IMG/VR virus record: IMGVR_UViG_3300005758_000413
Coordinates: 1 to 32,597 of that record
Reading direction: 5' to 3' (one strand)
Source of the DNA: a virus
Taxonomy: Duplodnaviria; Caudoviricetes
Length of the DNA: 32,597 nucleotides
Shown: positions 917 through 19,278 of the stretch, in pieces
How the letters are laid out: every line of letters begins with the position of its first letter
How positions within the stretch are numbered: position 1 is the first letter of the stretch
Position numbers and translations under genes: made by a program
The notes under the pieces: model-generated
What the model was told of the DNA's origin: nothing
Seen by the model: the letters and a program-made list of their open reading frames with translations, nothing else
Databases searched by the model: none

Positions 917-3124
917 TTAGGAAAAATCACGAGGTTTTCCTTTCTTTTTGTCCACTGCCTTGCGCTCGCGCTCCCGAGCACGGAACCATTCCTTGCCATC
1001 GTGCGCGACCTTGTAAAACTGGATACGGTTTGGTCCAGCCTCGCCCTCAATCCAGCCATTGTCCTGACAGTACTTGACAACATCCTTGAACAAACTGTAT
1101 CGAATGCCCGTGCCAGTGCGGATCATGTTGGTGCTGGCCAAGCCGTCATCCTGGTCAAGCAACCATCCAACGACCGTGTACGCCTTGGCGTCCAAGGTGG
1201 CTGTCTTTTGGCGTGCTTTGGCTTCCTCGTCACGCTCTTGCGCCTCTTGCGGGCTCAGCGGTGTGATGTCCTCACGTGGGATAAGGAGCGGCCCTTTGCG
1301 CTCAAACATCACCGAGCCCATGCTTGCGCTGTAATTGTGCTTGACGTGTTTGAACATCGCGTACTTGCTGACCGTGGCGTGGTCACTGGTGAGCCCGTAC
1401 CGTGCAGCGTCTTTGGGTGGCATGGACACCATGACAGCCACCGAGCGTGAATTGTCAGCAAAGCTGGACGCACCACGTAGCGAGCCCTGATTGATCTCTT
1501 CCAGCGTTGCCCACTGCGCCGTCTTGTGCATGTGGTGCAACACGATGACAGCGCAGTTGCCCGCCTTGGCGATGTATGTCAGCGTCTGCATGTAAAGCGC
1601 CATATCGCCCGGGCTTGATTCTTCTAGATTGTGCGTGTAGACAACGGGGTCAACGCATATCACCTTCAACTTGGCGTGCCGTATGAACCCAATGAGCCAC
1701 TCCACCCGGGCCGTGCGCTCTGGTGCGCTGCGTTGGTCAAACTTGGACATTAGGAGCCAGTTGATAGCGTCATCATCGGCTGCGTAGAGCATCAGGTTTT
1801 GCCGCAGTGCGCCATCAATGTCATAGAGCATGCCGCCCATCCCATCGTCAGCGTCTTTCAGGGCCGTGGCCAAGCGGTGGACACGTTTGTGGAGTTCCAG
1901 CGTGTCATCCTCGTAGGACACGTACAGGCCACGCATAGGGCCAGTCACGGTAAAGCCGCCCCAACTGTTGCCCAGTGCGCCATGGACAAGCAAGTGGAGC
2001 ATCAGCATGGACTTGGACACGCCACCCGGGCCAGCCAAGACCGTGACCTTACCCACGGGCGCAAACTTGTCCCAGGCAAACTCGCGCTCCTCGGGCAATG
2101 TCTGCAGGTAGCGGCCGATGCTGGCCTTCTGCTGGAAGCTGTCGTAGTCTTCCATGGCCGTGGCGGTGTCTGCGTTTTCCTCAGACTTGGGCAAGTGCCC
2201 AGCCTCGCGCAACCAGTTGACGAGCGTTTTGTAGGTGAGGTGAGGATGTCCGTTGACGTCCGGCTCGGTGTCAAAGCACTTCACGGCCGGACGCGGGTTG
2301 CCGTCGTGGTGCGCTTCGTAGTAGACCGTCTGAGTGTCGTTCTCGTTGCCGTGTTGTTCCACGAAGGGGCACGTGATGAAGTGCTTGCCGGGGTGGCGGG
2401 GGTCTTCCTTCAGGTACAGTCCTGCACGTCGCAGCGCAACCAACACGGGATCAGTCTTGCCGTCAGGGATGTCCGCTGGCCCGGTGCGCTCTTTGTCTTG
2501 CGCGTCCACGTTGTAAACCACGCGCCACGCTTTGCCGGGTCCGGTGTAGCCTTCCCAGAACACCCCATCGCGCAGCTTCGCGGGAAGGTACATGGGCTGA
2601 CTGAGTACCCATGACTCGGGCGTACACCACGGGCCGAGCCCCAGCTTCTTGGCCGCAGCCTGCGTCGTGGCACGCATGACGGGTTCCGTTAGGTCATCGC
2701 CTTCAATGGGCACGCCCACGGGCAAGACCACACGGTAGCGGGGCGCATCAGGGGTGTGTGACAAACTGGTGTAGACCCAGCCCTCAGCGCCGAGCCCTTC
2801 CAGCATGTCAAACACGTCTTGCGGGGCCGGGGGCGGGTCTTGGCCATCTTGGGCCTCAATGTCAAGCGTCAGCAAGGTGCGGGCCTGCACATTGGTGTCG
2901 TGCCGTTTGCCGTCAATCACGCCGCCCACAAAGTAGGGCAGTGACTTCTTCACGTCGCCACGCACGCGCTTCGGTGCGGTGTGGTATTCCTTGGAGGTCT
3001 TCTCGAGCGTTACGGGCTTCTTGAAACGGTCACGCAAGTCCGCCAGCGTTTCCTCGGCTCCGCTTGCCGTTGTCCGTGTGTTGAGCACGCCCCGAGCGTA
3101 CGAATAGGGGGTAAGTGTTGCCAT
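917..3124 (-). CDS. Primase-helicase: N-terminal prim-pol-like domain, Zn-binding segment, RepA/AAA_25 helicase, C-terminal winged-helix-like region
   Basis: LDIE and YTSLSH...PRYRVVLP primase motifs; CPF..QH...CF; Walker A GPGGVSKS; YVSYED; ICVDP; LHHMHK; LRGASSF. Alternative start at 3172. Confidence 0.88.
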   Translation of the reverse strand: MATLTPYSYARGVLNTRTTASGAEETLADLRDRFKKPVTLEKTSKEYHTAPKRVRGDVKKSLPYFVGGVIDGKRHDTNVQARTLLTLDIEAQDGQDPPPAPQDVFDMLEGLGAEGWVYTSLSHTPDAPRYRVVLPVGVPIEGDDLTEPVMRATTQAAAKKLGLGPWCTPESWVLSQPMYLPAKLRDGVFWEGYTGPGKAWRVVYNVDAQDKERTGPADIPDGKTDPVLVALRRAGLYLKEDPRHPGKHFITCPFVEQHGNENDTQTVYYEAHHDGNPRPAVKCFDTEPDVNGHPHLTYKTLVNWLREAGHLPKSEENADTATAMEDYDSFQQKASIGRYLQTLPEEREFAWDKFAPVGKVTVLAGPGGVSKSMLMLHLLVHGALGNSWGGFTVTGPMRGLYVSYEDDTLELHKRVHRLATALKDADDGMGGMLYDIDGALRQNLMLYAADDDAINWLLMSKFDQRSAPERTARVEWLIGFIRHAKLKVICVDPVVYTHNLEESSPGDMALYMQTLTYIAKAGNCAVIVLHHMHKTAQWATLEEINQGSLRGASSFADNSRSVAVMVSMPPKDAARYGLTSDHATVSKYAMFKHVKHNYSASMGSVMFERKGPLLIPREDITPLSPQEAQERDEEAKARQKTATLDAKAYTVVGWLLDQDDGLASTNMIRTGTGIRYSLFKDVVKYCQDNGWIEGEAGPNRIQFYKVAHDGKEWFRARERERKAVDKKKGKPRDFS

Positions 3125-3199
3125 CTTAAGAGTGTTCCATTTGAATGAGTGTGGTTTGTGTGGGCTTGTCATTGTGCCGGGTTGGTACGCAAGGGGCTG

Positions 3200-3416: not shown

Positions 3417-3437
3417 GATTGTTGGTTTCATGCAACG

Positions 3438-3536
3438 GTGAAGAATATTCTTGCGCGTGTGAAGAAAGTTCTTGGACTCTTCTAAAAAGTCTTTGATACT
3501 TCATTCATACCGCAACCACTTCACAGGAGCACTCAA
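3438..3536 (+). promoter_or_regulatory. Early sigma70-like promoter cassette, copy 1, with tandem AAGAA-N2-TTCTT boxes and RBS
   Basis: TTGGAC (3472-3477), 17 bp, GATACT (3495-3500); CAGGAG RBS; near copy at 18573-18644. Confidence 0.8.
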
Positions 3537-4177: not shown

Positions 4178-5098
4178 ATGGCCAAAACGCCGCTCGCCGC
4201 ACTCGCTGGAGTGCCAGACTACGAACAACACCCACTCGCCGCATCGCTGATGCCCGGTGGCATGTCAACTGAAGAGTTTGACGCATTCGCTGAGGATGTT
4301 GCCGCCCGTGGCATCATCTACCCCATCACAATCTTTGAGGGCAAAGTGCTGGACGGGTGGCACCGCTATCGGGCCGCAGTGCGTACGGGCAGCGCCCTCA
4401 AGACGCAAGAGTACTCAGGCACGGATCCAGCCGGGTACATCGCCGCATGTAACGTCCTGCGCCGCAAGTTGTCAAGCCTGCAACGTGCCCTCGTTGGTGC
4501 GAAGCTGCACCTGGAACACGCCGTGACCCAGCGTGACGTCTGCCGCCGTTTGGGCATTTCCAACACGGTGCTGAGCATGGTGCTCAAGGTGATTGACAGC
4601 CGCAACGCCAAGATCATCAAGCGCATCGAAACGGACAGCGATTACACCCGGGGCATGTTGCGCGAAGACCTGGAAGATGCGGGCCTTGTCCATGCCAACT
4701 ACGGGCGCAAGACTGACGAGGTTGATGCTGACGAGGACGATATGGAGTTCACCGAGCGTGCAGCGGGTCCAGGCAAGGCGGTCGCGAACAGTGTGTTTGA
4801 CATGGCCCGCGCTACGGGTGCTGACGAGCTTGATGAAGACCTCATCGGTGACGATGCGCCGTTGCCCACGGTTGGCAAGAAAGCAAGCCACCCCGAGCGC
4901 CGCACCAAAGACACGCCCGCGCAACGCATGCAAGAACACTTTCGTGAGCTGATGTACGATGAAAAAGCCACATTCATCCAGATGGTGTGGGCAGACCTGC
5001 GCCCCATCGCTGAAGAACTGGGCTTGCCCGGTTTGGTCAACACCGACGTGACAAGCAAAGCCATCAGCAAGGCCAGCAAGGCACGCGCCAAGGCGTAA
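4178..5098 (+). CDS. ParB/Srx-like N-terminal domain protein with HTH
   Basis: HPLA..MP.MS.EEF..F.EDV...G...PI....GKVLDGWHRYRA, N..RR.LS..QRA, then HTH-like TQRDVCRRLGISNTVLS. Confidence 0.8.
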   Translation: MAKTPLAALAGVPDYEQHPLAASLMPGGMSTEEFDAFAEDVAARGIIYPITIFEGKVLDGWHRYRAAVRTGSALKTQEYSGTDPAGYIAACNVLRRKLSSLQRALVGAKLHLEHAVTQRDVCRRLGISNTVLSMVLKVIDSRNAKIIKRIETDSDYTRGMLREDLEDAGLVHANYGRKTDEVDADEDDMEFTERAAGPGKAVANSVFDMARATGADELDEDLIGDDAPLPTVGKKASHPERRTKDTPAQRMQEHFRELMYDEKATFIQMVWADLRPIAEELGLPGLVNTDVTSKAISKASKARAKA

Positions 5099-5161: not shown

Positions 5162-5821
5162 ATGACCAAAGCACTGAACGTCGCAAAACTTGCGGAACAA
5201 TTCGACCAACTCGCCGAGCTGATGCTGGCCATCAGCGGGACCTTTCGGGGTGGCGCAAGCGATAGCGATGAGGCTGCTGGAGATGCAAAGCCTAGCCGCA
5301 AAGTACGAGCCGCAGCCCCCGCAGATGACGAGCCTGCTGAAAAGCCTGCACGCCGTAGTCGCAAGCCCGCAGCCGTCGAAGAGGGCGCGGAAGACACGCA
5401 CACGGAAGACCAAGTTCGCGCCGCACTGAAGGAGCTCGCCTCTGTAAAGGGCAAGGACGCTATGGCCGAAGCGTTGGCCAGCGTTGGAGCGGGCCGCTTG
5501 CCTGACGTTGATGAAAACGACTACGGGGTGTTGATGAAAGCCGTGAAGGAAGCCATGGAAGCTGAGGAAGAGGAAGAAAAGCCCGCCGCCAAGTCCAAGG
5601 CCAAGCCAAAGGCCAAAGTCAAGGAAATCGACTTCGACGACGTGAAGGAAAAGTTCACGCAACTGGTTGAGACTGACAAAGCCGCAGCCAAGAAGGTGCT
5701 CAAAGCTGCGGGCGTGGCCAAGCTGAGCGAAGTTGACACCGACGACGCTGACGCCGTTGCCGAGTTGGCCAAGGCTATCGATGAAGCCCTGGAAAACGCC
5801 GATGACGACTTGGTCGGCTGA
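5162..5821 (+). CDS. Acidic Ala/Glu/Lys-rich protein with two helical repeats, of the type found upstream of DUF2800 genes
   Basis: GGAG RBS; repeats DQVRAALKEL...ALASVGAGRLPDVD and DDVKEKFTQL...VLKAAGVAKLSEVD. Confidence 0.75.
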   Translation: MTKALNVAKLAEQFDQLAELMLAISGTFRGGASDSDEAAGDAKPSRKVRAAAPADDEPAEKPARRSRKPAAVEEGAEDTHTEDQVRAALKELASVKGKDAMAEALASVGAGRLPDVDENDYGVLMKAVKEAMEAEEEEEKPAAKSKAKPKAKVKEIDFDDVKEKFTQLVETDKAAAKKVLKAAGVAKLSEVDTDDADAVAELAKAIDEALENADDDLVG

Positions 5822-6338: not shown

Positions 6339-6643
6339 AGCCCGGGCACCTGCGCCAACACGGGGAGATCCGTGCCGCATTGACGCAAGCCCTGCGGACA
6401 CATGGCGGCTTCATGTTTTATACCGAGCTCAAGGCCGCAGCGGGCAACCGCAACATCCAGACGACTCTGCGCCGCATGGTGGACGCCGGGTACGTTCAGT
6501 ATCAGCGCATCGCGCCCCGTGTGGGGGTGTACCGTTGGAATGACGGTGGCGTCTACCCCGTGTGGGTTGACACGCCCCCGCAACGCACGCCCGCAGCCCT
6601 GACTCGCTGGATGCCCTCTTCACCCTATGGAGCCAAGAAATGA
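6320..6643 (+). CDS. Hypothetical protein, possible winged-helix DNA-binding protein
   Basis: GGAG before ATG 6320; MFYTELKAAAG..NIQTTLRRMVDAGYV pattern; ATGA overlap with the next gene. Confidence 0.6.
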   Translation: MVTKKIKPGHLRQHGEIRAALTQALRTHGGFMFYTELKAAAGNRNIQTTLRRMVDAGYVQYQRIAPRVGVYRWNDGGVYPVWVDTPPQRTPAALTRWMPSSPYGAKK

Positions 6644-7359
6644 CAAATAAGACACTGACCCTGCTGACAACCACTGGCGAGCGCCCCGAAGCGTTTGCGC
6701 TGTGCGTGCAGTGGATGAACCGCCAAAACTACGACGGCCCGGTGTCGTGGATCATCGTGGATGATGGCCGCACCCCCGCCGATATCCAGCCCGTGCGCCA
6801 AGACTGGGAAATCATGCTGGTGCAGCCTGAGGACAAGTGGCAACCCGGGCAGAACACGCAAGGCCGCAACCTACGCGCCGGACTGCGTGCCGTGGGTCTG
6901 CTTATGAAACACCGCGAGATGAACCTAGTGATCATCGAGGATGACGATTGGTACGCCGCTGACTGGTTGACAACCGTTGCCTCTGAGCTTAACAATGCCG
7001 AGCTCGTGGGCGAAGGCTGGGCCAGATACTACAACGTGAAACACCAACGCGCCCGCAAGATGCTGAACGACAAGCATGCCAGCCTCTGCTCAACGGCCAT
7101 GCGTGACGGTGCGTTGAAACACTTCTACGAGGTTTGCCTGGACGGGGTGGACTTCATTGACGTGGACTTGTGGAAGGGTCAAGGCTTCACGCGCAAGCTG
7201 TTCGGCGGGCATCGTGTTGTCGGCATCAAGGGGCTCCCGGGCCGTGCTGGGATCGGCATGGGGCACTCCAGCAAGATGCAAGGCTACGCCGACATGGACA
7301 GCAAAATCTTGCGCGACTGGGTTGGCCAAGACGCTGACGCATACTTGCGATTCACTTGA
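6640..7359 (+). CDS. GT-A fold (GT2-like) glycosyltransferase
   Basis: LLTTTGERP..F..C...M..Q.Y....WIIVDDG and an intact DxD-type motif VIIEDDDWY. Confidence 0.85.
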   Translation: MTNKTLTLLTTTGERPEAFALCVQWMNRQNYDGPVSWIIVDDGRTPADIQPVRQDWEIMLVQPEDKWQPGQNTQGRNLRAGLRAVGLLMKHREMNLVIIEDDDWYAADWLTTVASELNNAELVGEGWARYYNVKHQRARKMLNDKHASLCSTAMRDGALKHFYEVCLDGVDFIDVDLWKGQGFTRKLFGGHRVVGIKGLPGRAGIGMGHSSKMQGYADMDSKILRDWVGQDADAYLRFT

Positions 7360-8815: not shown

Positions 8816-9421
8816 ATGGCCACTAAAAAGCGCGTCTCGCTTAAGACACCCGAGGGCACTGCCTGTTTCGCAAACGTATTTGAGGCTCGTGCCCGCAAGG
8901 ATGCCAAAGGCAACCCCAAAGGCGACCCCAAGTTTTCCATACTGCTGGTGTTCGATCGTGGCACTGACTTGTCAGAAATGGAAGAGGCTATCGAAGCCGC
9001 AGCCGTTGAAAAGTTTGGCAGCAAAGCCGCCGCCATGCTGGCCAACGGCAAGCTCCACAATCCCCTGCGTGAAGCCTCCGACTACGACGAGCACGGCAAA
9101 CCGTTCACCAACAAGGGCGCGATGATGGCCGCATTCAAGTCCACCGATCAGCCCGGTGTGGTCGATGAGGATGCCGAGCCGCTCATGTCCAAGACAGAGT
9201 TCTACTCTGGTTGCCGTGCCCGTGTGTCGTATCGTGTGTACGCCTACGACAACGAGTCCAAGGGCGTGGGCCTTGCACTGGTCAACGTGCAGAAGCTGGG
9301 CGACGGTGAGCGCTTGTCGGGCAACCCTAGCGCCGAGGATGACTTTGCCGATGCCCCAAAGGCCAAAGCGAAGCCCGCACGCCGCAGCCGCGATGACGAT
9401 GACGAGGATGATCTGCTGTAA
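8816..9421 (+). CDS. DUF2815 single-stranded DNA-binding protein
   Basis: FANVF, PKFS.LL, FYSGC.AR.S...YAY...KGV...L.NVQKL.DGERLSG, acidic tail; lies between DUF2800 and PolA. Confidence 0.92.
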   Translation: MATKKRVSLKTPEGTACFANVFEARARKDAKGNPKGDPKFSILLVFDRGTDLSEMEEAIEAAAVEKFGSKAAAMLANGKLHNPLREASDYDEHGKPFTNKGAMMAAFKSTDQPGVVDEDAEPLMSKTEFYSGCRARVSYRVYAYDNESKGVGLALVNVQKLGDGERLSGNPSAEDDFADAPKAKAKPARRSRDDDDEDDLL

Positions 9422-9487: not shown

Positions 9488-9967
9488 ATGACCAAAGCAA
9501 ACGACATCGACGATCTGTTGGGCGACGACGCACCTGCGACCAAAGCCCCCGCCAAGAAAGCCGCAGCCAAGGCACCCGCCAAAGCCGCAGCCAAGGCACC
9601 CACCAAAGCCGCCCCCGCGAAGAAAGCCGTAGCTGACAAGGCCGAAAAGCCCGCAGCCAAAGCCACCCCCGCCAAGGCACCCGCCAAAGCCGCAGCCCCT
9701 GCCAAGGCTGAAAAAGCCGCCAAGGCTGACAAGCCCGCCAAAGTGCGCGAGCCAGTGGAGTTCGAAGACGGTGAAAAGGAAGCGCTGATGAAGCGTGTCC
9801 CCAAGCTGCTGAAGAACCCCATCAACTCCAAGGACCTTGCCGCCAAGATGGAAATCTCCACCCGCAAGCTGCGTCGCGTGCTGTACTCGCTGGAGCGTAC
9901 CGGGGCCATCACCCTCAAGTTGGGCGCAAGCCGCACCGAGGGCATGACGGTAGCCGCAGCGGCCTGA
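9488..9967 (+). CDS. Histone H1-like (PAKAAAK repeats) DNA-binding protein with C-terminal winged-helix-like domain
   Basis: About 70 aa of K/A/P repeats, then INSKDLAAKMEISTRKLRRVLYSLERTGAI. Confidence 0.8.
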   Translation: MTKANDIDDLLGDDAPATKAPAKKAAAKAPAKAAAKAPTKAAPAKKAVADKAEKPAAKATPAKAPAKAAAPAKAEKAAKADKPAKVREPVEFEDGEKEALMKRVPKLLKNPINSKDLAAKMEISTRKLRRVLYSLERTGAITLKLGASRTEGMTVAAAA

Positions 9968-9992: not shown

Positions 9993-10027
9993 GCCCCTGT
10001 CGGCCAAATCGGTCGCAGGGGCTTTTT
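9993..10027 (+). terminator. Rho-independent terminator
   Basis: GCCCCTG...CAGGGGC followed by TTTTT. Confidence 0.7.
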
Positions 10028-10058
10028 GTTGACTGTCACCTCGGCTACCCCCTCAACT

Positions 10059-12044
10059 ATGACTAAAAACGCCCTACATCTCGACTACGAAACGTTCAGC
10101 GCGTGCCCCATTGCCAAGTCAGGGGCGTACCGTTACGCACGCCACCAGACCACGGAAGTGCTCATTGCCTCGTACTGGTTGCCGGAAATGGACCCCGACC
10201 TGGACAAGCCGTTGGTCTGGTTGCCCCGCACCCAAAAACCCCCGCGCGACTTGTTGGCCGCAGCCCGGGACAAGGCCATTGAGTTTTGGGCTCATAACGC
10301 TCAGTTTGAACGCGCCGTGTCCACGTGGGCACTGCGACGCATGTACCCCGGGTTCCCAGAGATAGCCATTGAGCGCTGGATGTGTACGGCTGCGCTCGCG
10401 GCCGCGAACGGACTGGCCCGCAACCTGGACACCGCCTTGCAGATGCTGGGCACGGGTGTCGGCAAAGACCCAGAAGGCAAACGGCTCATCAAGAAGTTTT
10501 GCATCCCGCGCAAGCCCACCAAGAACGACCCACGGACGCGCATCTTGCCCGAGGATGACCCAGCCGACTTTGACAAGTTCGTGCGCTACTGCCAACAAGA
10601 CGTCCTCGGTGAACTGGAGCTCCACACGCACCTTCCACCCATGCACCCCGAAGAGCGCCGTTTCTTCCATCTGGACATGCACATGAACGAGCGCGGCTTG
10701 CCGATTGACTTGCCGTTGGTGCGTAAGACATACGACGTGCTCCAGGTGTTGGAAAAGAACATCCATGACGAGGTGGCCAAGCTCACCGGGGGCATCAAGG
10801 CCACGCAACGGGAAAAGATGCTTGCCGTGTTTGCGGGCATGGGCATTGACCTGGAAAACATCCGGGCGCAAACCGTGCGTGATGAACTGGCCAACAACAA
10901 AGACCTCAGCGAGGATGCCCGTCGTTTGCTTCAGTTGCGCGTTGAGGCGGGCAAGGCGTCCACCAAAAAGCTGGTCTCGATGCTGGCCTGCACCGACCCT
11001 GACGACCACGTTGTCCAAGGCGGGTTCCTGTTCCATGGGGCGCATACGGGCCGATACGCTGGCCGACTGGTGCAGCCGCAGAACTTTATCCGTGGGTCGC
11101 TCAAGCCGCACCAACAAGACACGGTCTTTGACTTGCTTGACATGGCCGACCCGGACATCATGGCCATGCTGTACGACTGGCCCATTGACACCATCAGTCA
11201 GTGCATGCGGGGCTTCATGCGTGCCCCGGAGGGCCAACGCTGGGTCGTGGTTGACTACACGGCGATTGAGGCCCGTGTGCTGGCATGGGTGGCCAACGAG
11301 GTGCGAGTGCTGGAGGCGTACCGCAAGGGCGTTGACGTCTACAAGATGATGGCGTCCAGTTTGTTCAGCATCCCAATCGAGAAGGTGGATAGCGAGCAAC
11401 GCCGCCTCGGCAAGAACTTGGTGCTCGGTTGCGGGTACTCGCTGGGCGGGGCACGGTTCGTCGAATACTGCGCCGGACTTGGCCAAGTGGTGGATCCAGC
11501 ATTCGCCGTGAAGGCCGTGAAGATGTACCGTGATCAGCACAAAGGCATCGTGAGCCTCTGGAAAGAAGTTGAGGACGCCGCCGCTGAGGCTATCCGTAGC
11601 CCGGGCAAGCGAACCGAGGTGGCCCGCTGCACGATGTTCATGCGCGAGCATTGGTTCTGCATCCAGTTGCCAAGCGGGCGCGAAATCCGCTACGCCAAAG
11701 CACGGGCCACGCCCGTTGAGCGCTGGGGCAAGCCCGGGTTCCAGATCAGTTTCATGACAGAGTTCCACGGTAAGGTCGTGCGCGAAACAACCTACGGGGG
11801 CAAGCTGGTTGAGAACATCGTGCAAGGTATAGCCCGTGACGTGATGCGTGAGGGCATGTTCAGCGCCGAAGAGGCCGGGTATCCGTGTCACGGTACAGTC
11901 CATGACGAATTGCTCACACTGCGCCAGCATGGCGAGGGCAGTCATCACGAGCTCGAGAAGATTGTCTGCACCTTGCCCAAATGGACACGGGGCATCCCAC
12001 TCAATGCGGAGGGCTTCGAATGCGTGCGCTATCGCAAGGGTTGA
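10059..12044 (+). CDS. polA: Family A DNA polymerase with 3'-5' exonuclease domain
   Basis: Exonuclease motifs LDYET, AHNAQFER, YC.QDV; HTGRYAG; motif A DYTAIEAR; motif B R..GKNLVLG.GY; motif C VHDE. Confidence 0.96.
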   Translation: MTKNALHLDYETFSACPIAKSGAYRYARHQTTEVLIASYWLPEMDPDLDKPLVWLPRTQKPPRDLLAAARDKAIEFWAHNAQFERAVSTWALRRMYPGFPEIAIERWMCTAALAAANGLARNLDTALQMLGTGVGKDPEGKRLIKKFCIPRKPTKNDPRTRILPEDDPADFDKFVRYCQQDVLGELELHTHLPPMHPEERRFFHLDMHMNERGLPIDLPLVRKTYDVLQVLEKNIHDEVAKLTGGIKATQREKMLAVFAGMGIDLENIRAQTVRDELANNKDLSEDARRLLQLRVEAGKASTKKLVSMLACTDPDDHVVQGGFLFHGAHTGRYAGRLVQPQNFIRGSLKPHQQDTVFDLLDMADPDIMAMLYDWPIDTISQCMRGFMRAPEGQRWVVVDYTAIEARVLAWVANEVRVLEAYRKGVDVYKMMASSLFSIPIEKVDSEQRRLGKNLVLGCGYSLGGARFVEYCAGLGQVVDPAFAVKAVKMYRDQHKGIVSLWKEVEDAAAEAIRSPGKRTEVARCTMFMREHWFCIQLPSGREIRYAKARATPVERWGKPGFQISFMTEFHGKVVRETTYGGKLVENIVQGIARDVMREGMFSAEEAGYPCHGTVHDELLTLRQHGEGSHHELEKIVCTLPKWTRGIPLNAEGFECVRYRKG

Positions 12045-12337
12045 AGCTGCGCCTGCAGACCGAAGACACGGTTGAAAAGCACTTGCGCAAGCGGGTCAAG
12101 AAGATGCGAGGGCTTTGCATCAAGATCCGTTTGTTGCCCGGGTGGCCTGACCGCTTGGTGTTCCTGCACGGGGGCATCTTGGTCTTCTTCGAGCTCAAGC
12201 GGCCCAAAGGGGGGAAGTTTGAACCACGACAACCGCGCGTTCATAAGATGCTGCGCGAGTTCGGATTTGCCGTGTACGTGGCCAACACCAAAGAATTGAT
12301 TGACGAAATACTGGACACCCACTATGCTCAACCGTGA
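12041..12337 (+). CDS. VRR-NUC domain nuclease
   Basis: E..VE..L...VK...GLC.K....GWPDRL......FFELK.P.G; sits between PolA and SNF2. Start uncertain (TTG 12041). Confidence 0.88.
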   Translation: MKLRLQTEDTVEKHLRKRVKKMRGLCIKIRLLPGWPDRLVFLHGGILVFFELKRPKGGKFEPRQPRVHKMLREFGFAVYVANTKELIDEILDTHYAQP

Positions 12338-13742
12338 CAACCTGCGCAACTATCAGCGCCGCGCATACACGTTCATCAAGCGCAACCCGCAGTCCGGCCT
12401 CTTTCTGGACATGGGCCTCGGCAAGACCGTGAGCACACTTACCGCTTTGACAGATCTATTCGAGAGCGGGGACGTGCGCCGTGTGTTGCTGGTCGCGCCG
12501 CTCAAGGTGGTTCAAGGCGTGTGGGCGCAAGAGGCCAAGAAGTGGGCACACACGAAACACCTGACGTTCAAGCTGATACACGGTGACGAGCGCCAACGCC
12601 TGCAAGCGTTGCAAAGCACGGCCGATGTTCACCTGATCAACGTGGAAAACCTGCGATGGTTGCTGTACGTGCTGAAGAACGCCGCCAAGCGCAAGAACTT
12701 CCAATGGCCGTATGACACGCTCATCATTGATGAGTCATCGTTGTTCAAGTCGCCAAGCGCCAAACGGTTCGTCACGTTGCGCCACACGCTCAACCGCTTT
12801 GAGCGCCGTCACATCCTAACGGGCACGCCCAGCCCAAACGGGTTGATGGATCTGTGGTCGCAGTTGTTCATCGTGGACAAGGGCCAACGCCTCGGCGAGA
12901 ACGTCAAACGCTACCGTGAGCGCTTTTTCAACTCGGCCGGGTACATGGGATATTCTTACGAGCCAGTGGCCGAGGCCAAAGAAAAGATCGCGGAGCTCAT
13001 AAGCCCGGTCATCCTCACCATGCGTGCCGAAGACTGGTTGGAACTGCCCCCGCTCATCAAGGACGAGGTCTGGGTTGACCTGCCCGCACCCGCCCGCAAG
13101 ATGTACGACAAAATGGAACGTGAGATGTTCCTGGAACTGGAGCAAGGCACCGCCGAGGCTGCGCACGCCGCAAGCGTGACGGCCAAGTGCCACCAGATAG
13201 CGAACGGAGCGCTCTTCCTCGAGGACAGCCGTGGTGACAAGGTGTGGCAAGCCGTGCACGAAGCCAAGCTGGAAGCCCTGCAAGAGATCTTGGAAGGCAC
13301 GGGGTCAAACGCATTGGTCGCGTATTACTTCAAACATGACCTGGAGCGCCTGCGCAAAGCGTTTCCCAAAGCGCCCGTCATCAAGGACGCCAAGAATCAG
13401 GCGCAGTTGGACAAGATGCAAAACGAGTGGAACGCTGGCGAGCATCGCGTGATGCTTATCCACCCGCAAGGTGCAGGCCACGGGCTCAACCTGCAAGACG
13501 GTGGTCACTTGCTTGTCTTCTACTCCATGCTCTTTGGTCATGAGCCGTATCGGCAAGTGATTGAGCGCATTGGCCCCGCACGCCAAGTCGGCAAGGCGAA
13601 GCGGGTGCTGGTGAAGCATATCCTGGCCCGCGACACGGTTGACGAGGCTCTTCTTGCATCTCAGCGAAGAAAGTTTGATGATGAGCGGGGTTTTATTGCA
13701 TCATTGCACGAGTACCGTCAGATCAAGGAGATGCTGGGATGA
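12324..13742 (+). CDS. SNF2-family (SF2) helicase
   Basis: LRNYQ, LDMGLGKT, IIDESS, LTGTPSPN, GHGLNLQ. Confidence 0.93.
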   Translation: MLNRDNLRNYQRRAYTFIKRNPQSGLFLDMGLGKTVSTLTALTDLFESGDVRRVLLVAPLKVVQGVWAQEAKKWAHTKHLTFKLIHGDERQRLQALQSTADVHLINVENLRWLLYVLKNAAKRKNFQWPYDTLIIDESSLFKSPSAKRFVTLRHTLNRFERRHILTGTPSPNGLMDLWSQLFIVDKGQRLGENVKRYRERFFNSAGYMGYSYEPVAEAKEKIAELISPVILTMRAEDWLELPPLIKDEVWVDLPAPARKMYDKMEREMFLELEQGTAEAAHAASVTAKCHQIANGALFLEDSRGDKVWQAVHEAKLEALQEILEGTGSNALVAYYFKHDLERLRKAFPKAPVIKDAKNQAQLDKMQNEWNAGEHRVMLIHPQGAGHGLNLQDGGHLLVFYSMLFGHEPYRQVIERIGPARQVGKAKRVLVKHILARDTVDEALLASQRRKFDDERGFIASLHEYRQIKEMLG

Positions 13743-14332
13743 ACATTTATTATCTGTTGCGCAAAGGTGAAGACCCCGCCCGCGAGTTGGACAACTTGTA
13801 CGGGGAGTCACACCGAATCCGTGTGCTGCGCAACTTCTACGAAGCCCGTGAGCGTGCATTCGCGCACGCGCATGAGACCGGGGTGCGTCACTGCCTGATA
13901 ATCGCGGGCAAGGCTGACCCCCGTTGGATGCACTGGCCCAGCACGGCCAAAACCCGGTCACTGTCGCTGGCCAGCATGGCAAACCCCGAGCCCCGGCATG
14001 ACCACGCCTTGCTCCTGTATGCGCGTCGCTTGCTGCGTCAGCACGCCTCCGCCGTGGTCGTGCCGCCGCTGGGTGCGTTGCCGCAGATGCGCCGGGGCTG
14101 GGAAGAGAACATGCCACTCGCTCCCGTGGTGGCTGCGTACCGAGTGCCCTCCGTGATGGCCGTTGACCACACGGGGCCGGGGCTGGAGTACAATCTCGTG
14201 AGCAACGGTTGCCGAGTGCTGGCCCTGAGTGACTTTGGGCACCGCATGACGGGCGAGCCGTTGCTGGACACTTACGGAAGCGCAATCAAATGGAAACGGG
14301 CATATGAGCACACTCAAAAGACTCTCTTCTAA
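13739..14332 (+). CDS. Highly diverged TET/JBP-associated glycosyltransferase (TAGT)-like protein, apparently lacking catalytic acids
   Basis: Resembles TAGT segments R....HA...G....II, EN......AYR, L...G...L and terminal I.WKRAY, but DDD is replaced by AGK and no ED motif is seen. First gene of the modification cluster. Confidence 0.5.
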   Translation: MNIYYLLRKGEDPARELDNLYGESHRIRVLRNFYEARERAFAHAHETGVRHCLIIAGKADPRWMHWPSTAKTRSLSLASMANPEPRHDHALLLYARRLLRQHASAVVVPPLGALPQMRRGWEENMPLAPVVAAYRVPSVMAVDHTGPGLEYNLVSNGCRVLALSDFGHRMTGEPLLDTYGSAIKWKRAYEHTQKTLF

Positions 14333-14900
14333 ACTGGTCTACATCCATGGCACCAACGGGAGCGGGAAAAGCACGCTGGCCCGTGCCCTGTTGGCCGCAG
14401 CCGCGCACCCCACGGGCATCGAACACCTCCCAGGCAACCCCAAAGCCTCCTGGACCAACACGGCCGGAGGTGTGGTGTTCATTGGCAAATATGGCAACGC
14501 CTGCGGGGGCGTAGATGGCCTTTCGCCCTATGCGTCGATCAAAGATATCGTCGGTATGCACGCTGACGAGGGCGGGGTAATGCTGGCCGAAGGGCTTGTC
14601 ACGCCGGGTCTGGCCACGTGCCAAGAGTTGGCCAACATGGTGAACACGCACCTGTTCATTCACTTGGACGTACCGTTGGAGGCGTGCGTGGCCAACGTGC
14701 TGACGCGCCGCAGCCGCAAGGGCACCGACAAGCCCTACGACACGGCAAACCTGATCAAGAAACGCGCATCCGCAGAAAGCTGGATCCGCCGTCTGGGCGA
14801 AGCTGGCCTCGCTGTTCAGATTTGTTCTTGGAATGAGGCATACTTGCGATGTCTGGAGTTCTTGGAACTGCAAGACTTTGACCACACTAATCTTCTATAA
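14304..14900 (+). CDS. P-loop nucleotide kinase of thymidine-hypermodification clusters
   Basis: HGTNGSGKST, IGKY..ACGGVD, AEG, LD.PLE.C..NV..RR; adjacent to the dUMP hydroxymethylase. Confidence 0.8.
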   Translation: MSTLKRLSSKLVYIHGTNGSGKSTLARALLAAAAHPTGIEHLPGNPKASWTNTAGGVVFIGKYGNACGGVDGLSPYASIKDIVGMHADEGGVMLAEGLVTPGLATCQELANMVNTHLFIHLDVPLEACVANVLTRRSRKGTDKPYDTANLIKKRASAESWIRRLGEAGLAVQICSWNEAYLRCLEFLELQDFDHTNLL

Positions 14901-14910
14901 GGAAACCACG

Positions 14911-16008
14911 ATGACACTCAAAACAATGCAAGACGCACCTCACGGCATGTACGGCTTCGGCCTGACCGTGCGCAACGTCAACGAGGCTTTGCCCCTTGGC
15001 CTGCAACTGGTGCAATCACACGGAGTACCCGTTACCTCGCGCGGGTTGGCCACGCTGGAAGTTCCAGGCCCAGTCACCACGATCTACCGCGCCCCTGAAG
15101 AGCGGGTGTTGTTCTGCCCCATCCGTGATGCAAACCCGTTCTTCCACTTCTTCGAGTCCTTGTGGATTCTTGCTGGTGCTCGCACGGTGCATCTGCCCCG
15201 CACGTTCCTGCAACGCATCGAAGATTATAGCGATGACGGCAAAGAGTTTCATGGGGCGTACGGCCATCGCCTGATGCACGCCTACGGGTTTGACCAGTTG
15301 GAAAAGGCTGGGGAGATCCTGGCCACGCGCCCCGACAGCCGTCAAGTCGTGTGCAGCATCTGGCATCCAACGCTGGACCTCGGTATGGCCACAAAGGACA
15401 CCCCCTGCAACGACATGATCATGTTCAAGGTGCGCGACGGCATGCTCAACATGACGGTGAACAACCGCTCCAACGACGTTATCTGGGGCGCATACGGGGC
15501 CAACGCCGTTCAGTTCAGCATCATCCAGGAGTACGTTGCCGCCCTTGCTGGCACGACCGTGGGTTACTACACGCAAGTGAGTGACTCGTATCACGTGTAC
15601 GTGGATAATCCACTCTGGCAGAAGTTCGCTTCGGGTCAATACATGCCGGAAGGCCACGTGGTCAACCCGTACAACATGGGCGACCTATCAGTAGCCCCGC
15701 GTCCTATGTTCCACGACCGTGCTGATGCGCTGGCATGCCGTGCGGATGCGCAGTTGCTGAACCAAATGGCGGAGAAGGGCGTTATCCATCACGCGCCTGT
15801 CGCCTGGATGAACAAAAAGTTCACCTCCTCGTTGTTCAACGATGTGGCCATCCCCATGCTCTTGGCTTTCTTCAATTACAAATCGGGTGACATGGACGGG
15901 GCGTGGCGCATGGCCAACGACAACATCAAAGCCCGCGACTGGGCCGCTGCGTGTGGCCAGTGGATCAGCCGCCGTGACCGTGCCCGCAAGGCAAAGGAGC
16001 AAGCATGA
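14911..16008 (+). CDS. Thymidylate synthase-superfamily dUMP hydroxymethyltransferase
   Basis: SRG, ERVLF...RDANPFFH.FE.LW.LAG, YSDDG..FHGAYG.R, catalytic KD.PCN, NRSND..WGAYGAN (Asn indicating dUMP specificity), S.H.Y. Confidence 0.9.
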   Translation: MTLKTMQDAPHGMYGFGLTVRNVNEALPLGLQLVQSHGVPVTSRGLATLEVPGPVTTIYRAPEERVLFCPIRDANPFFHFFESLWILAGARTVHLPRTFLQRIEDYSDDGKEFHGAYGHRLMHAYGFDQLEKAGEILATRPDSRQVVCSIWHPTLDLGMATKDTPCNDMIMFKVRDGMLNMTVNNRSNDVIWGAYGANAVQFSIIQEYVAALAGTTVGYYTQVSDSYHVYVDNPLWQKFASGQYMPEGHVVNPYNMGDLSVAPRPMFHDRADALACRADAQLLNQMAEKGVIHHAPVAWMNKKFTSSLFNDVAIPMLLAFFNYKSGDMDGAWRMANDNIKARDWAAACGQWISRRDRARKAKEQA

Positions 16009-16130
16009 AAAAGTTTCTAGAACTACTGGTCGGCGGGACGCTGGTCTGGGCCGTTGCGTGGATGGTGCTGGGCCTGTTGGCCAAAGTAACGGCATTCTTC
16101 TTCATGCTGGGCTGGGGGGCTGTCTTATGA
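16005..16130 (+). CDS. 41-aa membrane protein (not in the ORF track)
   Basis: AAGGAG RBS; ATGA overlaps at both ends; MKKFLELLVGGTLVWAVAWMVLGLLAKVTAFFFMLGWGAVL. Confidence 0.7.
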   Translation: MKKFLELLVGGTLVWAVAWMVLGLLAKVTAFFFMLGWGAVL

Positions 16131-16441
16131 ACTGCTGCGACTACGACTGCAATCAGGGACGCAACTGCCCCGCACGCAAAACCCCGGTCGCGGGGGCTGT
16201 CCCCAGCACGGGCGAAGGGTTCTGGCCACTGTTGTTCAAGCTGCGCACCCATGCACGCCCCGCCCCGCTTGACCCACGGACGTTTGAACCCGTTGCGTGG
16301 TGGTACGAGGTTGCATGCGGGGGGATGTCCCCCTACTTTGAGTGGAGGTTAACGAGCAACTTCGCCGACACGGAAGGAGCCCGCCGTGTGCGCCCCCTTA
16401 TCTTTGCCGAGCCCGGGTTTACGAAAGCGGACATCACATGA
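16127..16441 (+). CDS. Hypothetical protein with a Cys-rich N-terminus (MNCCDYDCNQGRNCPAR)
   Basis: ATGA-coupled on both sides. Confidence 0.7.
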   Translation: MNCCDYDCNQGRNCPARKTPVAGAVPSTGEGFWPLLFKLRTHARPAPLDPRTFEPVAWWYEVACGGMSPYFEWRLTSNFADTEGARRVRPLIFAEPGFTKADIT

Positions 16442-16995
16442 CCACGCACTTTGAACACGCCTGCCTCATGCGTGATGCCGGGGCCGTCAAGCGATATCAC
16501 ACGGTTCGCACTGCACGCATCCAAACCGTCGCTGAACACACGTTCGGCGTCATGCAACTGATCCAACAAATCTACCCCGACGCACGGAAGGAAGTCTTGT
16601 TGGCCGCGATGCACCACGATCTTCCAGAATACGTGACGGGCGATGTGCCTGCACCCATCAAGCGCCAACTCCCACGACTGGCCATCTTGCTGGAAGAAGC
16701 CGAGCGCGGTACTGCCCCGCTCTACCAAGACTTCAACTTGACAGCGTTTGAAGAAGCCGTTGTCAAGTGGTGTGACTTGATGGAGTTGGTGCTTTGGTGT
16801 CTGGAAGAAGTGCAAATGGGCAACACCTACGCGATGCACCCGTGCATCAAGGGGCTGTCCTGGCTCTGGGACGCATACGACGGCCTCGTTGCGCAAAACC
16901 CCATGACCAACACTGCGCGAAAATTGCTGCGTGAGACCACTGAGGCCGCACGCAAGGCCGGAATCACACTTACCGTAGAACACACAAAGGATTGA
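16438..16995 (+). CDS. HD-domain deoxynucleotide phosphohydrolase (YfbR/DatZ-like)
   Basis: VKRYH, TVAEH, HHDLPE..TGD.P.P.K, VK.CD..E. Confidence 0.88.
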   Translation: MTTHFEHACLMRDAGAVKRYHTVRTARIQTVAEHTFGVMQLIQQIYPDARKEVLLAAMHHDLPEYVTGDVPAPIKRQLPRLAILLEEAERGTAPLYQDFNLTAFEEAVVKWCDLMELVLWCLEEVQMGNTYAMHPCIKGLSWLWDAYDGLVAQNPMTNTARKLLRETTEAARKAGITLTVEHTKD

Positions 16996-17000
16996 ACAAC

Positions 17001-17453
17001 ATGAGCGCAAACGATACCCAAGTTGCGGGCACGCACTACCGCACCGAGTTCCAGCATTGGGACCTCGTGGTGGCCACTGGGATGGGATACTTTGAAGGTC
17101 AAGTGAGCAAGTACACCACGCGCCACCGCAAGAAGAACGGACTGCAAGACCTCGAGAAGGCGTTGCACTTCGCACGCAAGGGCTACGAACTTTCCATGTC
17201 CGGCCGCATCTCGCCACGCCTGCACCCCATTGAAGCGGCCATCGTGCTCTTTGATGACTACGCCCACGCCAACGAGCTCAACGTGGTGGAGTCCACCATC
17301 GTGCGCCGTGTTGCTCAGTGGTACGCCCCCAAAGACTGGCGAGACATCATCCAGTACATCCAACGGCTCATCACCCAGCACTACGAACCAGTCGACGAGG
17401 CGGGCGAACACGACGCCGAAGCTGGCCCGGGCTACGTGAACCAGGACCGTTGA
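17001..17453 (+). CDS. DUF3310 (SaV / T7 gp1.7-like nucleotide kinase) domain protein
   Basis: QV.G.HY, Q.WD, YFEG...KY..R.RKKNG..DL.KA.HF. Alternative start TTG 16992. Confidence 0.85.
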   Translation: MSANDTQVAGTHYRTEFQHWDLVVATGMGYFEGQVSKYTTRHRKKNGLQDLEKALHFARKGYELSMSGRISPRLHPIEAAIVLFDDYAHANELNVVESTIVRRVAQWYAPKDWRDIIQYIQRLITQHYEPVDEAGEHDAEAGPGYVNQDR

Positions 17454-17454
17454 C

Positions 17455-18339
17455 ATGACCGCCATCCCCACACTTGAGCAAGCCCGCCCATTCCTGCGGT
17501 TCGTGATCGCCCGTCACCGGGTGTGGATCAACCGCACTGCGGGCAAGCCTGCACCCTGGACCGATGACGCCATCTTGCAAAACTATCGGTTCTGCAACGT
17601 GTATCGAGAACTGGACAAGGTGACGCTCTGGGTTCGCAAGAACTGGAGCGCCGACTACGGTAGCGACCCCGATCTTTGGTTTGCGATGGTGGTGGCTCGC
17701 CTAGTGAACTTGCCCAGCACGCTCAACCGTTTGCAGCCGTTGCCGTGGGTGCCGAAACGCTTTGTGGAAACGCTGGAGGCGCAAGCTAAGGTCGGCGTCA
17801 CGGTGTTCGGGCCTGCGTACATCGTGTCCACCAACGGGCACGCCATGCCGAAGGCGCAGTATCTAGCCGACATGGTGCTGAACCCTATGTGGAAGGCCCG
17901 TGCTGACCTGCGCCCGCAAGAGCGCGAACCGTTGCAGGCGTATCACGCACGGCTGATGTCTATGCAAGGCATGGGGTCGTTCATGGCCGCGCAAGTGGTG
18001 GCTGATATCAAGAACACGCCGGGGTCGCAACTGCGCAAGTCCAAAGACTGGTGGGACTGGGCTGCGCCCGGGCCTGGGAGCCTGCGTGGCCTGAGCCGTG
18101 TGCTGGGCCGTGGTGCGGTTAGAACTGGCCTGCGCGAGCCTGACTGGTTGGCCGGGGTGCAGTATTTGCGCGATCAAGTGAACGATCGCTTCACGTCACT
18201 GGGCTGGGAGCCAGTGTGTTCGCAAGACACCCAGAACTGCCTCTGTGAGTTTGACAAGTACGAACGCGCACGGCTGGGCGAAGGTAAACCGAAACAGAAG
18301 TTCCCGGGGGCGGGCAGTCAAACGGAGTTGTTCAAATGA
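17455..18339 (+). CDS. 5-hydroxymethyluracil DNA kinase (aGPT-Pplase1 / 5-HMUDK helical family)
   Basis: P.PWT.D.IL..YRFCNVYRE.D, G.GSFMA.QVVAD, PGPGS.RGL, QNCLCEFDKY.R. Confidence 0.9.
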   Translation: MTAIPTLEQARPFLRFVIARHRVWINRTAGKPAPWTDDAILQNYRFCNVYRELDKVTLWVRKNWSADYGSDPDLWFAMVVARLVNLPSTLNRLQPLPWVPKRFVETLEAQAKVGVTVFGPAYIVSTNGHAMPKAQYLADMVLNPMWKARADLRPQEREPLQAYHARLMSMQGMGSFMAAQVVADIKNTPGSQLRKSKDWWDWAAPGPGSLRGLSRVLGRGAVRTGLREPDWLAGVQYLRDQVNDRFTSLGWEPVCSQDTQNCLCEFDKYERARLGEGKPKQKFPGAGSQTELFK

Positions 18340-18578
18340 GTGCCGTGTACGGATGCCACAATCACGCGCCGTTCAAGCCGTTCGTTGAGGTGCAGGCCGG
18401 GTGGAGCGCAGCCACGATGCCCGGGGTAGAACCCAGCACGCGCCGCCCGCACGTCATACGGATACCCTTCCGCATGTCCATGGACTGCAAGTATGATCTT
18501 CACCACGTGGATCCAAAGTGCAAGGGGTGTTCACATGTTGCGCCACCGCAACAAATGGAATTTTCTTTTGATGTGTGA
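18336..18578 (+). CDS. Small Cys/His-rich hypothetical protein
   Basis: ATGA overlap with the kinase gene; YGCHN, C.Y...DPKC.GC.H. Confidence 0.7.
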   Translation: MSAVYGCHNHAPFKPFVEVQAGWSAATMPGVEPSTRRPHVIRIPFRMSMDCKYDLHHVDPKCKGCSHVAPPQQMEFSFDV

Positions 18579-18650
18579 AGAAAGTTCTTGCGCTCTTCTA
18601 AGAATATCCTGAAACTTCAGTCATACCGCAACCACTCACTGGAGTTCAAC
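18573..18650 (+). promoter_or_regulatory. Early promoter cassette, copy 2
   Basis: TTGCGC (18588-18593), 17 bp, GAAACT (18611-18616); shares GTGTGAAGAAAGTTCTTG and TCATACCGCAACCACT with copy 1. Confidence 0.8.
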
Positions 18651-18894: not shown

Positions 18895-19278
18895 ATGACC
18901 CGCATCAACCTAGTCCACCCCTCCACGCTTTGCGACAAGCATCTGGGCGCTGAGTACCGTGAGCTCCCCCGTGTGTTCGGCCTAGTGCGTGCCGCTGCGG
19001 CCCGTGGTGAGCGCCCCGCTGACCCCCGCAACCCTACGGAGTTCCGTCTTGGTTCTGGCCATGTCCGGTTCTTCTATCCACGCCTCGGCTGGCTCGTTGA
19101 GCGGTACATGCTGCTCGTGCAGGAATGCCAGCGTCGCGGCCGCACCGTCAACTTCACCGCACCGGACACGCACGGCATTCCCGTTGAGTGGTTCGGCTAC
19201 TGGCAACCCAATGAGCGCGATCTTGCGCTGTCCCAGGCCCGCATCTTGGCCAAACTTCCTAAAGGAGCACAATCATGA
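18895..19278 (+). CDS. denV: Pyrimidine-dimer DNA glycosylase / endonuclease V
   Basis: MTRINL......L.D.HL.AEYRELPRVF ... F.LG.GHV.FFY..L..L..R...L..E...RG, matching the T4 endonuclease V pattern. Confidence 0.95.
   Translation: MTRINLVHPSTLCDKHLGAEYRELPRVFGLVRAAAARGERPADPRNPTEFRLGSGHVRFFYPRLGWLVERYMLLVQECQRRGRTVNFTAPDTHGIPVEWFGYWQPNERDLALSQARILAKLPKGAQS

What the first reader, a model, noticed from the sequence alone, without database searches (positions are those of the whole stretch)
14315..18575. Beta-clamp-binding-like motifs at the C-termini of the DNA-acting modification proteins
Seen: the TAGT-like protein ends QKTLF* (14315-14329), the 5hmdU DNA kinase ends QTELFK* (18319-18336), and the next Cys-rich protein ends QMEFSFDV* (18552-18575). 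The nucleotide-pool enzymes (hydroxymethylase, HD, DUF3310) have no such tail. Established: QL[S/D]LF (QxxLF) and hexameric QLxLxL are DnaN clamp-binding motifs, usually near protein ends. No phage clamp is visible here. Inference: post-replicative base modification is tethered to nascent DNA through the host sliding clamp, and the motif marks the 18336 protein as a candidate missing pathway component.
Basis: partly seen in the sequence, partly recalled or inferred. Interest (0 to 1): 0.75.

Follow-up and report, generated by a model that had tools for sequence, protein, structure and literature searches.

The report
One likely clamp tail, two look-alikes
In this thymine-modifying phage only one of three clamp-hook-like protein tails is a real add-on that likely grips the host DNA sliding clamp, the other two are better explained as a protein's last helix and a repeated DNA signal read as codons, and in related phages the true DNA kinase carries a different, acidic tail that probably docks on the phage's own replication proteins.

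Summary
The three tails exist at the stated coordinates and exceed chance, but differ in kind. QTELFK ends an M6 gp55 homolog (clade-1 aGPT-Pplase, not the proven kinase). It is an optional appendage: 205 of 266 homolog ends lack a tail, but 8 of 61 long tails end QxxL[LF] (0.14 expected), mostly in one subclade, and ribosome-site overlap does not explain this. It fits MuC's validated DnaN motif: a likely host-clamp ligand, binding untested (complex prediction unavailable). QKTLF is the end of a conserved helix of a TAGT-like fold lacking the DDD motif, overlapping the kinase start; QxxLF in 2 of 43 family members. QMEFSFDV is largely a repeated upstream DNA element read as codons, on a generic phage accessory family found beside lambdoid genes, so not a pathway part. 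The P-loop kinase ends HTNLL, but 6 of 6 relatives carry an appended acidic VDDLL-type tail shared with SSB, helicase and two more replication proteins, absent from nucleotide-pool enzymes. No phage clamp in two complete relatives. This scan noted clamp-like tails on modification enzymes before on other DNA; the SSB-like tail was not found there.

The parts
17455..18339 (+). Clade-1 aGPT-Pplase / Pfam HMUDK_hel protein (M6 gp55 homolog); activity unknown
   Evidence: PF18723 E 1e-41; 36% to M6 gp55
18319..18336 (+). QTELFK tail: appended beyond the family's usual end; likely beta-clamp-binding motif; its codons also hold the GGAG ribosome site (18324-18327) and the A of the next ATG
13739..14332 (+). 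Degenerate TAGT-like (GT-A fold) protein lacking the DDD motif; 43-member family
14315..14329 (+). QKTLF: end of the conserved terminal amphipathic helix, dual-coded with the kinase N-terminus
14304..14900 (+). P-loop 5-hmdU DNA kinase (M6 gp54 homolog); ends HTNLL (14883-14897), a degenerate form of the acidic tail of its relatives
   Evidence: PF18748 E 2e-6
14911..16008 (+). dUMP hydroxymethylase (thymidylate synthase fold); no tail
16438..16995 (+). HD nucleotidase; no tail
16992..17453 (+). DUF3310 nucleotide-kinase-like protein; no tail
18336..18578 (+). 80-aa Cys-rich protein of a generic phage accessory family; tail QMEFSFDV 18552-18575
18557..18650 (+). Repeated upstream element (promoter-like by position), copy 2; overlaps the EFSFDV-stop codons
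3408..3536 (+). Repeated upstream element, copy 1, in front of ORF 3537
8816..9421 (+). Enc34/T7-type SSB ending in the acidic DDLL tail
   Evidence: PF10991
5162..5821 (+). phrog_408 protein ending DDLVG (DDLL-type tail in relatives)
9488..9967 (+). Ala/Lys-rich HTH-like protein with the DDLL-type motif at its N-terminus
12300..13742 (+). SNF2-type helicase ending EMLG (acidic-hydrophobic tail; codons also hold the next gene's ribosome site)
10026..12044 (+). Family A DNA polymerase; no terminal tail and no conserved clamp motif; candidate receptor of the acidic tails
917..3172 (-). Primase-helicase (AAA_25); no tail; candidate receptor of the acidic tails

Best explanation
The clade-1 aGPT-Pplase of this phage, predicted to replace thymine with 5-hmdU, has an optional QTELF tail that likely binds the host beta-clamp and would hold it on clamp-loaded new DNA, while QKTLF is likely just the last helix of a TAGT-like fold and QMEFSFDV likely a repeated DNA element read as codons. 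Shown: tail sequences, their distribution in homologs, the overlaps, the absence of a phage clamp gene in two complete relatives. Inferred steps: (1) hydroxymethylase, HD and DUF3310 supply 5-hmdUTP to the phage Pol A; (2) the P-loop kinase phosphorylates 5-hmdU in DNA; in relatives it is brought to the fork by an acidic [VL]-[DE]-[DE]-L-L tail copied from the phage SSB tail, probably docking on Pol A or the primase-helicase as T7 gp2.5 does; (3) the clade-1 protein acts on or binds that DNA, and in some lineages gains a Q-x-x-L-[LF] hook that raises its local concentration on DnaN rings loaded by the host loader; the hook is an accessory, not a requirement. The 80-aa protein is not part of the pathway.
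For: QTELF fits the Mor/C consensus Qx[D/E][L/M]F, and the near relative's QPELF is one conservative change from MuC's QPDLF, shown to bind DnaN (PMC12867686 passages). 8 of 61 long tails end Qxx[LM][LF] versus 0.14 in shuffles, 15 end L[LF] versus 0.96; 14 of 48 rows in one subclade versus 1 of 73, 12 changes on a quick tree. Control for ribosome-site overlap: 0 of 242 coupled genes end QxxL[LF], 4 end [LM][LF]; Q at -5 is 4.5% there versus 8 of 15 in the tails. QKTLF: helix 182-196 in the model; W185 41/43, position 193 I/L/M/V in 32 of 43 and Q in 4; same WKKAYE helix in active TAGTs. QMEFSFDV: TTTTCTTTTGAT occurs exactly twice in the window, both before the same repeat; tail in 1 of 12 distinct family sequences from loci. 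Acidic tail: SSB 6/6, 5162 family 5/5, helicase 8/8, kinase 6/7, 9488 N-terminus 5/5; Pol 0/7, VRR 0/7, hydroxymethylase 0/6, HD 0/6, DUF3310 0/6; acidic-hydrophobic ends are the SSB family's own signature, 46 of 76. No PF00712 in 4 of 4 records, two complete.
Against: No binding data or complex model. 205 of 266 clade-1 homologs, including the nearest at 60-64% identity and M6 gp55, have no tail; strict QxxLF occurs only in the window's own lineage. E and K of QTELFK are explained by the overlapping ribosome site and ATG, and G at -4 in other tails partly so; most motif-bearing homologs have no DNA context to check. The Q-type tails cluster in the same clade as the acidic tails and one relative mixes QTSLL, QRELL and NDLF, which favours a single receptor. 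The sub-lineage nearest the window shifts the TAGT-like helix end to Qxx[LF]F (3 of 43 plus L246), so QKTLF may be under selection. Q and M of QMEFSFDV are not matched by the other repeat copy, the 5' end of that gene is also nearly free of synonymous change (1 of 14), and the sigma-70 scan found no promoter there. M6 gp54 and gp51 work purified, without clamp (PMC8989533 passages).
Confidence: 0.45

Rival explanations
1. One phage-encoded hub: all terminal L-[LF] tails, Q-type and acidic, are variants of the phage SSB tail and dock on Pol A or the primase-helicase; the host clamp is not involved.
For: Q-type tails are concentrated in the clade that spreads the acidic tail (14 of 48 versus 1 of 73); L242 uses QTSLL, QRELL, NDLF at positions where others have DDLL; Pol and primase lack the tail, as receptors would; T7 gp2.5's acidic tail binds polymerase and primase-helicase (PMC5686142 passage).
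Against: The clade-1 tails are mostly non-acidic, have Q at -5 in 8 of 15 and end in F in 7 of 15, the signature of DnaN ligands.
Confidence: 0.22
2. No tail in the finding is functional: all three are by-products of gene overlap, ribosome sites, a DNA repeat and drift.
For: Each of the three overlaps a DNA-level signal; none is conserved beyond close relatives; several other long clade-1 tails are plain ribosome-site overlaps (L127, L125, L143, L076, L224).
Against: Coupled genes do not end in L[LF] or QxxL[LF] more often (4 and 0 of 242) and Q is not enriched at -5, against 15 and 8 of 61 in clade-1 tails.
Confidence: 0.14
3. Host clamp as tool belt for everything: the acidic DDLL-type tails are also DnaN ligands, so SSB, helicase, kinase and the clade-1 protein all gather on host clamps.
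For: Mor uses only DLF of the consensus (passage); the motif works at either terminus here (9488 N-terminus), as in MuC; interchange with Q-type forms in L242; no phage clamp.
Against: The acidic tail is the family-wide T7-type SSB tail (46 of 76); it lacks the conserved Q; Pol A has no conserved clamp motif.
Confidence: 0.12
4. One reading: all three tails bind DnaN and the 80-aa protein is a missing pathway component.
For: Three matches in one cluster are beyond chance; QMEFSFDV resembles the Pol III C-terminal motif QVELEFD (PMC3716654 passage) and is kept in 4 of 4 full-length relatives at 73-91% identity; the 80-aa gene follows the clade-1 gene in L002 too.
Against: None of 14 further loci of the 80-aa family has a kinase, hydroxymethylase or clade-1 homolog in the fetched DNA; neighbours are YqaJ, SSB, DnaB, NinB, RusA, terminase; the gene is absent next to the clade-1 gene in two complete relatives; its tail is a DNA repeat; QKTLF is a helix end.
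Confidence: 0.07

Closest known systems
Bacterial beta-clamp clients with QL[S/D]LF or hexameric motifs (Pol II, III, IV, V); phage Mu MuC/Mor (PMC12867686)
   Same: Terminal Q-x-[DE]-L-F on a phage DNA-acting protein in a phage without its own clamp.
   Different: Client is a base-modification protein of unknown activity; motif is sporadic in the family, not conserved as in Mor/C; phage has its own Pol A; binding not shown.
Pseudomonas phage M6 / PaMx11 thymidine hypermodification cluster (PMC8989533)
   Same: Homologs of gp54 kinase, gp55, gp58 hydroxymethylase, gp59 HD, gp61.
   Different: No clade-2 amino acid:DNA transferase, PLP or radical SAM gene in the window and no PF18724 in two complete relatives; a degenerate TAGT-like gene instead; M6 proteins have no such tails.
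T7 gp2.5 / Enc34 ORF6 acidic SSB tail (PMC5686142)
   Same: Same SSB family; acidic tail with hydrophobic end used for contacts with replication proteins.
   Different: Here the tail signature recurs on four other protein families including the DNA kinase, and once at an N-terminus; receptor unknown.
T4 alpha-glucosyltransferase and gp45 clamp
   Same: The idea that post-replicative base modification rides on a sliding clamp.
   Different: Phage-encoded clamp; the interaction was not reproduced in vitro or in vivo in bioRxiv 10.64898/2025.12.06.692756 (passages).

Membership tests
Beta-clamp-binding motif client (17455 protein) | Q at position 1 and L-F at positions 4-5, near a terminus | tested here: met
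   QTELF-K-stop; fits Qx[D/E][L/M]F
Beta-clamp-binding motif client (17455 protein) | Motif outside the folded domain, on a linker | tested here: met
   Family ends about 8 residues earlier in 205 of 266 ends; Pfam match stops at 276; the single-sequence model was too poor to add
Beta-clamp-binding motif client (17455 protein) | Conservation across homologs | tested here: inconclusive
   Not conserved family-wide; recurrent and enriched in one subclade
Beta-clamp-binding motif client (any of the three) | Binding to the DnaN pocket | not testable with these tools
Beta-clamp-binding motif client (13739 protein) | Motif outside the folded domain and conserved | tested here: not met
   Part of terminal helix 182-196; QxxLF in 2 of 43
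Beta-clamp-binding motif client (18336 protein) | Motif kept by protein-level selection | tested here: not met
   Coincides with a repeated DNA element; 0 of 14 synonymous changes over the last 15 codons versus 8 of 18 just before; absent in 11 of 12 distinct family sequences
5-hmdU DNA kinase (5-HMUDK) | P-loop kinase domain homologous to M6 gp54 | tested here: met
   Met by 14304-14900 (PF18748; tblastn E 8e-5); not by 17455-18339, which matches gp55
TAGT glycosyltransferase (PF20691) | GT-A fold related to TAGT | tested here: met
   the syntenic gene of L020 is PF20691
TAGT glycosyltransferase (PF20691) | Acidic DDD metal-binding motif | tested here: not met
   Aligned columns are A-G-K-A in the window; D in 1 of 43 at the G57 column and not among the commonest residues of the others
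M6-type amino-acid hypermodification pathway | Clade-2 amino acid:DNA transferase (PF18724) | tested here: not met
   0 in window (85% complete) and 0 of 2 complete relatives; found in the more distant G001
T7 gp2.5-type tail docking | Tail binds phage polymerase or primase-helicase | not testable with these tools
   Only distribution was tested

The most novel reading that the evidence does not exclude
A phage with its own family-A polymerase runs base modification on short docking tails: the 5-hmdU DNA kinase, SSB, helicase and two accessory proteins share one SSB-derived tail, the clade-1 aGPT-Pplase repeatedly evolves a host beta-clamp hook, and both bring thymine modification onto new DNA in a pathway that lacks the known transferase.
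Probability: 0.3. Interest if true: 0.75.

Novelty: new variant of a known kind. Interest (0 to 1): 0.42.

Why it matters
How phages modify new DNA before host nucleases cut it is open; the one published clamp link (T4 alpha-GT and gp45) was recently not reproduced. A validated-type DnaN motif on a modification protein, and an SSB-like tail on the 5-hmdU kinase, give two cheap peptide tests and name candidate receptors. The case also shows that terminal QxxLF look-alikes can come from helix ends, gene overlaps and DNA repeats.

Tried and rejected
Complex prediction of DnaN with the 17455 tail could not be run: no verdict. The wide structural search was busy at every try; Foldseek PDB gave only weak GT-A hits (best E 1.4e-3); PDB sequence search 0 hits; ESM Atlas gave no usable hit for 13739 or 18336. 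Single-sequence fold of 17455 was poor (pLDDT 43.5) and not used. tblastn of 13739 and 18336 in cultured phages: no match. Locus searches with the 45-row alignment had no conserved seed. A search with P0016 gave 16 loci; the 9 ends recovered held no new Q-type tail. Rejected: ribosome-site overlap as the full cause of clade-1 tails; a hidden phage clamp; a clamp motif in Pol A; the 80-aa protein as pathway part. The careful tree did not finish; the quick tree was used.
Full report
Setting. The window is an 85%-complete virus record of a siphophage with primase-helicase, Enc34-type SSB, family A polymerase, VRR-NUC and SNF2 helicase, followed by a 5-hmdU module. The three tails are at the stated coordinates. 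Among 3000 distinct C-termini of mechanically picked ORFs (some spurious) from 260 other loci, QxxLF ended 0, Qxx[LM][LF] 4 and the hexamer 1, so the cluster is beyond simple chance. The question is whether each is a selected clamp motif.

Gene identities. The 17455 protein matches PF18723 (HMUDK_hel) and is the homolog of M6 gp55 (36%). In PMC8989533 (passages) the kinase is the P-loop protein gp54, active when purified, and gp55 could be left out of the lysate reaction; the words clamp and replisome do not occur in its main text. The window's kinase is therefore 14304-14900 (PF18748), which ends HTNLL. ORF 13739 has no Pfam, PHROG or NCBIfam hit, but its model (pLDDT 75) matches viral TAGT proteins, its 45-row profile aligns to a TAGT profile (prob 85%), and a PF20691 gene sits after the helicase in L020. 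The DDD motif is lost, so it is likely inactive or changed (inference). No clade-2 transferase is in the window or in two complete relatives.

Tail 1, QTELFK. Of 266 distinct C-termini (120 proteins plus loci), 205 stop within 25 residues of the last conserved motif and none of these matches; 61 are longer, and 8 end Qxx[LM][LF] (0.14 in 20,000 within-tail shuffles) and 15 end [LM][LF] (0.96). Strict QxxLF occurs in 2, both the window's lineage. On a quick tree of 121 domains without tails, 14 of the 15 motif rows (two are the window and its 94% twin) lie in a 48-row subclade (SH-aLRT 91) with 12 changes; Fisher P 7e-6, not corrected for kinship. The nearest homologs at 60-64% have no tail. 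The codons hold the next gene's GGAG and ATG, which explains E and K. As a control, 242 coupled genes with such overlap ended [LM][LF] in 4 cases and QxxL[LF] in 0, and had Q at -5 in 4.5% against 8 of 15 in the tails. So Q and L-[LF] look selected as protein. QTELF and L001's QPELF fit the Mor/C consensus Qx[D/E][L/M]F, whose MuC members bind DnaN (PMC12867686 passages). I put peptide binding at about 0.6 and a role in modification lower.

Tail 2, QKTLF. In 43 family sequences the end is a fixed-length amphipathic helix W-x-x-A-Y-E-x-A-[IL]-x-x-h-L; Q193 sits where 32 of 43 have I, L, M or V; QxxLF is in 2 of 43 (window, 68% relative), Qxx[LMF][LF] in 3, plus QNEFF in L246. Active TAGTs have the same WKKAYE helix. 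The last nine codons also encode the kinase N-terminus. A sub-lineage shift towards Qxx[LF]F is visible, so I leave about 0.25-0.3 for a clamp role.

Tail 3, QMEFSFDV. It resembles the Pol III motif QVELEFD (PMC3716654 passage) and is kept in 4 of 4 full-length relatives at 73-91% (a fifth hit is frame-shifted). But the 12-mer encoding most of FSFD occurs exactly twice in the window, at 3408 and 18561 (0 in 100 shuffles), each before the same repeat that runs to a ribosome site and ATG; the repeat core stands in non-coding DNA of the two complete relatives. The last 15 codons show 0 of 14 synonymous changes against L001 versus 8 of 18 just upstream, though the first 17 codons show only 1 of 14. 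Q and M are not matched by the other copy, and the sigma-70 scan found no site, so 'promoter' rests on position and repetition. The family itself is generic: 1 of 12 distinct sequences from loci has the tail, and none of 14 loci outside the two 5-hmdU lineages has a kinase, hydroxymethylase or clade-1 homolog in the 5-20 kb fetched; neighbours are YqaJ, SSB, DnaB, NinB, RusA and terminases.

What is conserved instead. In the window and eight close relatives an acidic-hydrophobic end marks SSB (6 of 6), the 5162 family (5 of 5), helicase (8 of 8), kinase (6 of 7, the window is the miss) and the N-terminus of the 9488 family (5 of 5, read by eye); 3764 family 2 of 7, ParB 1 of 4, ORF 13739 family 1 of 6; Pol 0 of 7, exonuclease 0 of 8 pieces, VRR 0 of 7, hydroxymethylase, HD and DUF3310 0 of 6 each, clade-1 protein 0 of 4. 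The kinase tail is an appended P-x-P-[ST]-[VL]-[DE]-[DE]-L-L, not seen in 18 distant kinases, uses varied codons and does not overlap the next ribosome site. The helicase tail does overlap one, so it is weaker evidence; outside the clade 2 of 101 helicase ends match. Acidic-hydrophobic ends are the SSB family's own signature (46 of 76), and T7 gp2.5's acidic tail contacts polymerase and primase-helicase (PMC5686142 passage). I infer SSB-tail mimicry with a phage receptor; DnaN is not excluded. No DnaN-like gene was found in 4 records, and the complete G003 shows no unexplained ORF of clamp size (read by eye). Pol A has no conserved clamp motif in 5 sequences.

Literature. Searches of the held library found no paper reporting a beta-clamp motif on a phage base-modification enzyme; subscription journals are mostly missing and no supplements were read. 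The T4 alpha-GT-gp45 link was not reproduced (bioRxiv 10.64898/2025.12.06.692756, passages). PMC9690074 (passages) gives the consensus and warns of its variability; PMC13229309 and PMC7824862 (passages) added nothing on clamps. That the host loader can load DnaN on phage primer junctions is my own knowledge, not from a call. Earlier notes of this scan describe clamp-like tails on modification enzymes in other phages and the missing clade-2 transferase in look-alike clusters; a word search for the acidic shared tail returned none.

Verdict. Observation partly confirmed, interpretation partly supported: one likely DnaN hook, optional and lineage-limited; two look-alikes; the pathway-component claim fails; the better conserved feature is the SSB-like tail on the true kinase in relatives. 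Binding is untested. Interest 0.42; new variant of a known kind.

Noticed in passing
window 5162-5821, 8816-9421, 9488-9967, 12300-13742, 14304-14900; L083, L084, L246, L327-L330: Clade-wide acidic DDLL-type terminal motif on SSB, helicase, DNA kinase and two accessory proteins, absent from Pol, nucleases and nucleotide-pool enzymes; receptor unknown.
   Followed up: partly
window 13739-18339; G002, G003: 5-hmdU kinase and clade-1 aGPT-Pplase without any clade-2 transferase, with a TAGT-like protein lacking DDD; the final base cannot be predicted.
   Followed up: partly
window 3408-3536 and 18557-18650: Two copies of an upstream element with a palindromic AAGAA-nn-TTCTT core (a third degenerate core at 3439), kept in non-coding DNA of relatives; likely early promoter or operator.
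   Followed up: partly
window 6640-7359: 239-aa ORF that looks by eye like a GT-A glycosyltransferase with an intact EDDD, no Pfam or PHROG hit, absent from relatives other than the same phage; could supply a sugar transfer that ORF 13739 has lost.
   Followed up: no
L328 14045-17468, L329 7356-10810: Relatives with kinase and hydroxymethylase but neither the clade-1 gene nor the ORF 13739 family nearby; a 278-aa unknown ORF stands before the kinase.
   Followed up: no
window 18895-19278: DenV-like pyrimidine dimer glycosylase (PF03013) just downstream of the modification cluster, without any tail.
   Followed up: no
window 4178-5098: ParB-like protein conserved in the clade, upstream of the replication genes.
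   Followed up: no
L242 1293-6604: A more distant relative uses NDLF, QTSLL and QRELL at the ends where others have DDLL-type tails, and has a clade-2 transferase.
   Followed up: partly
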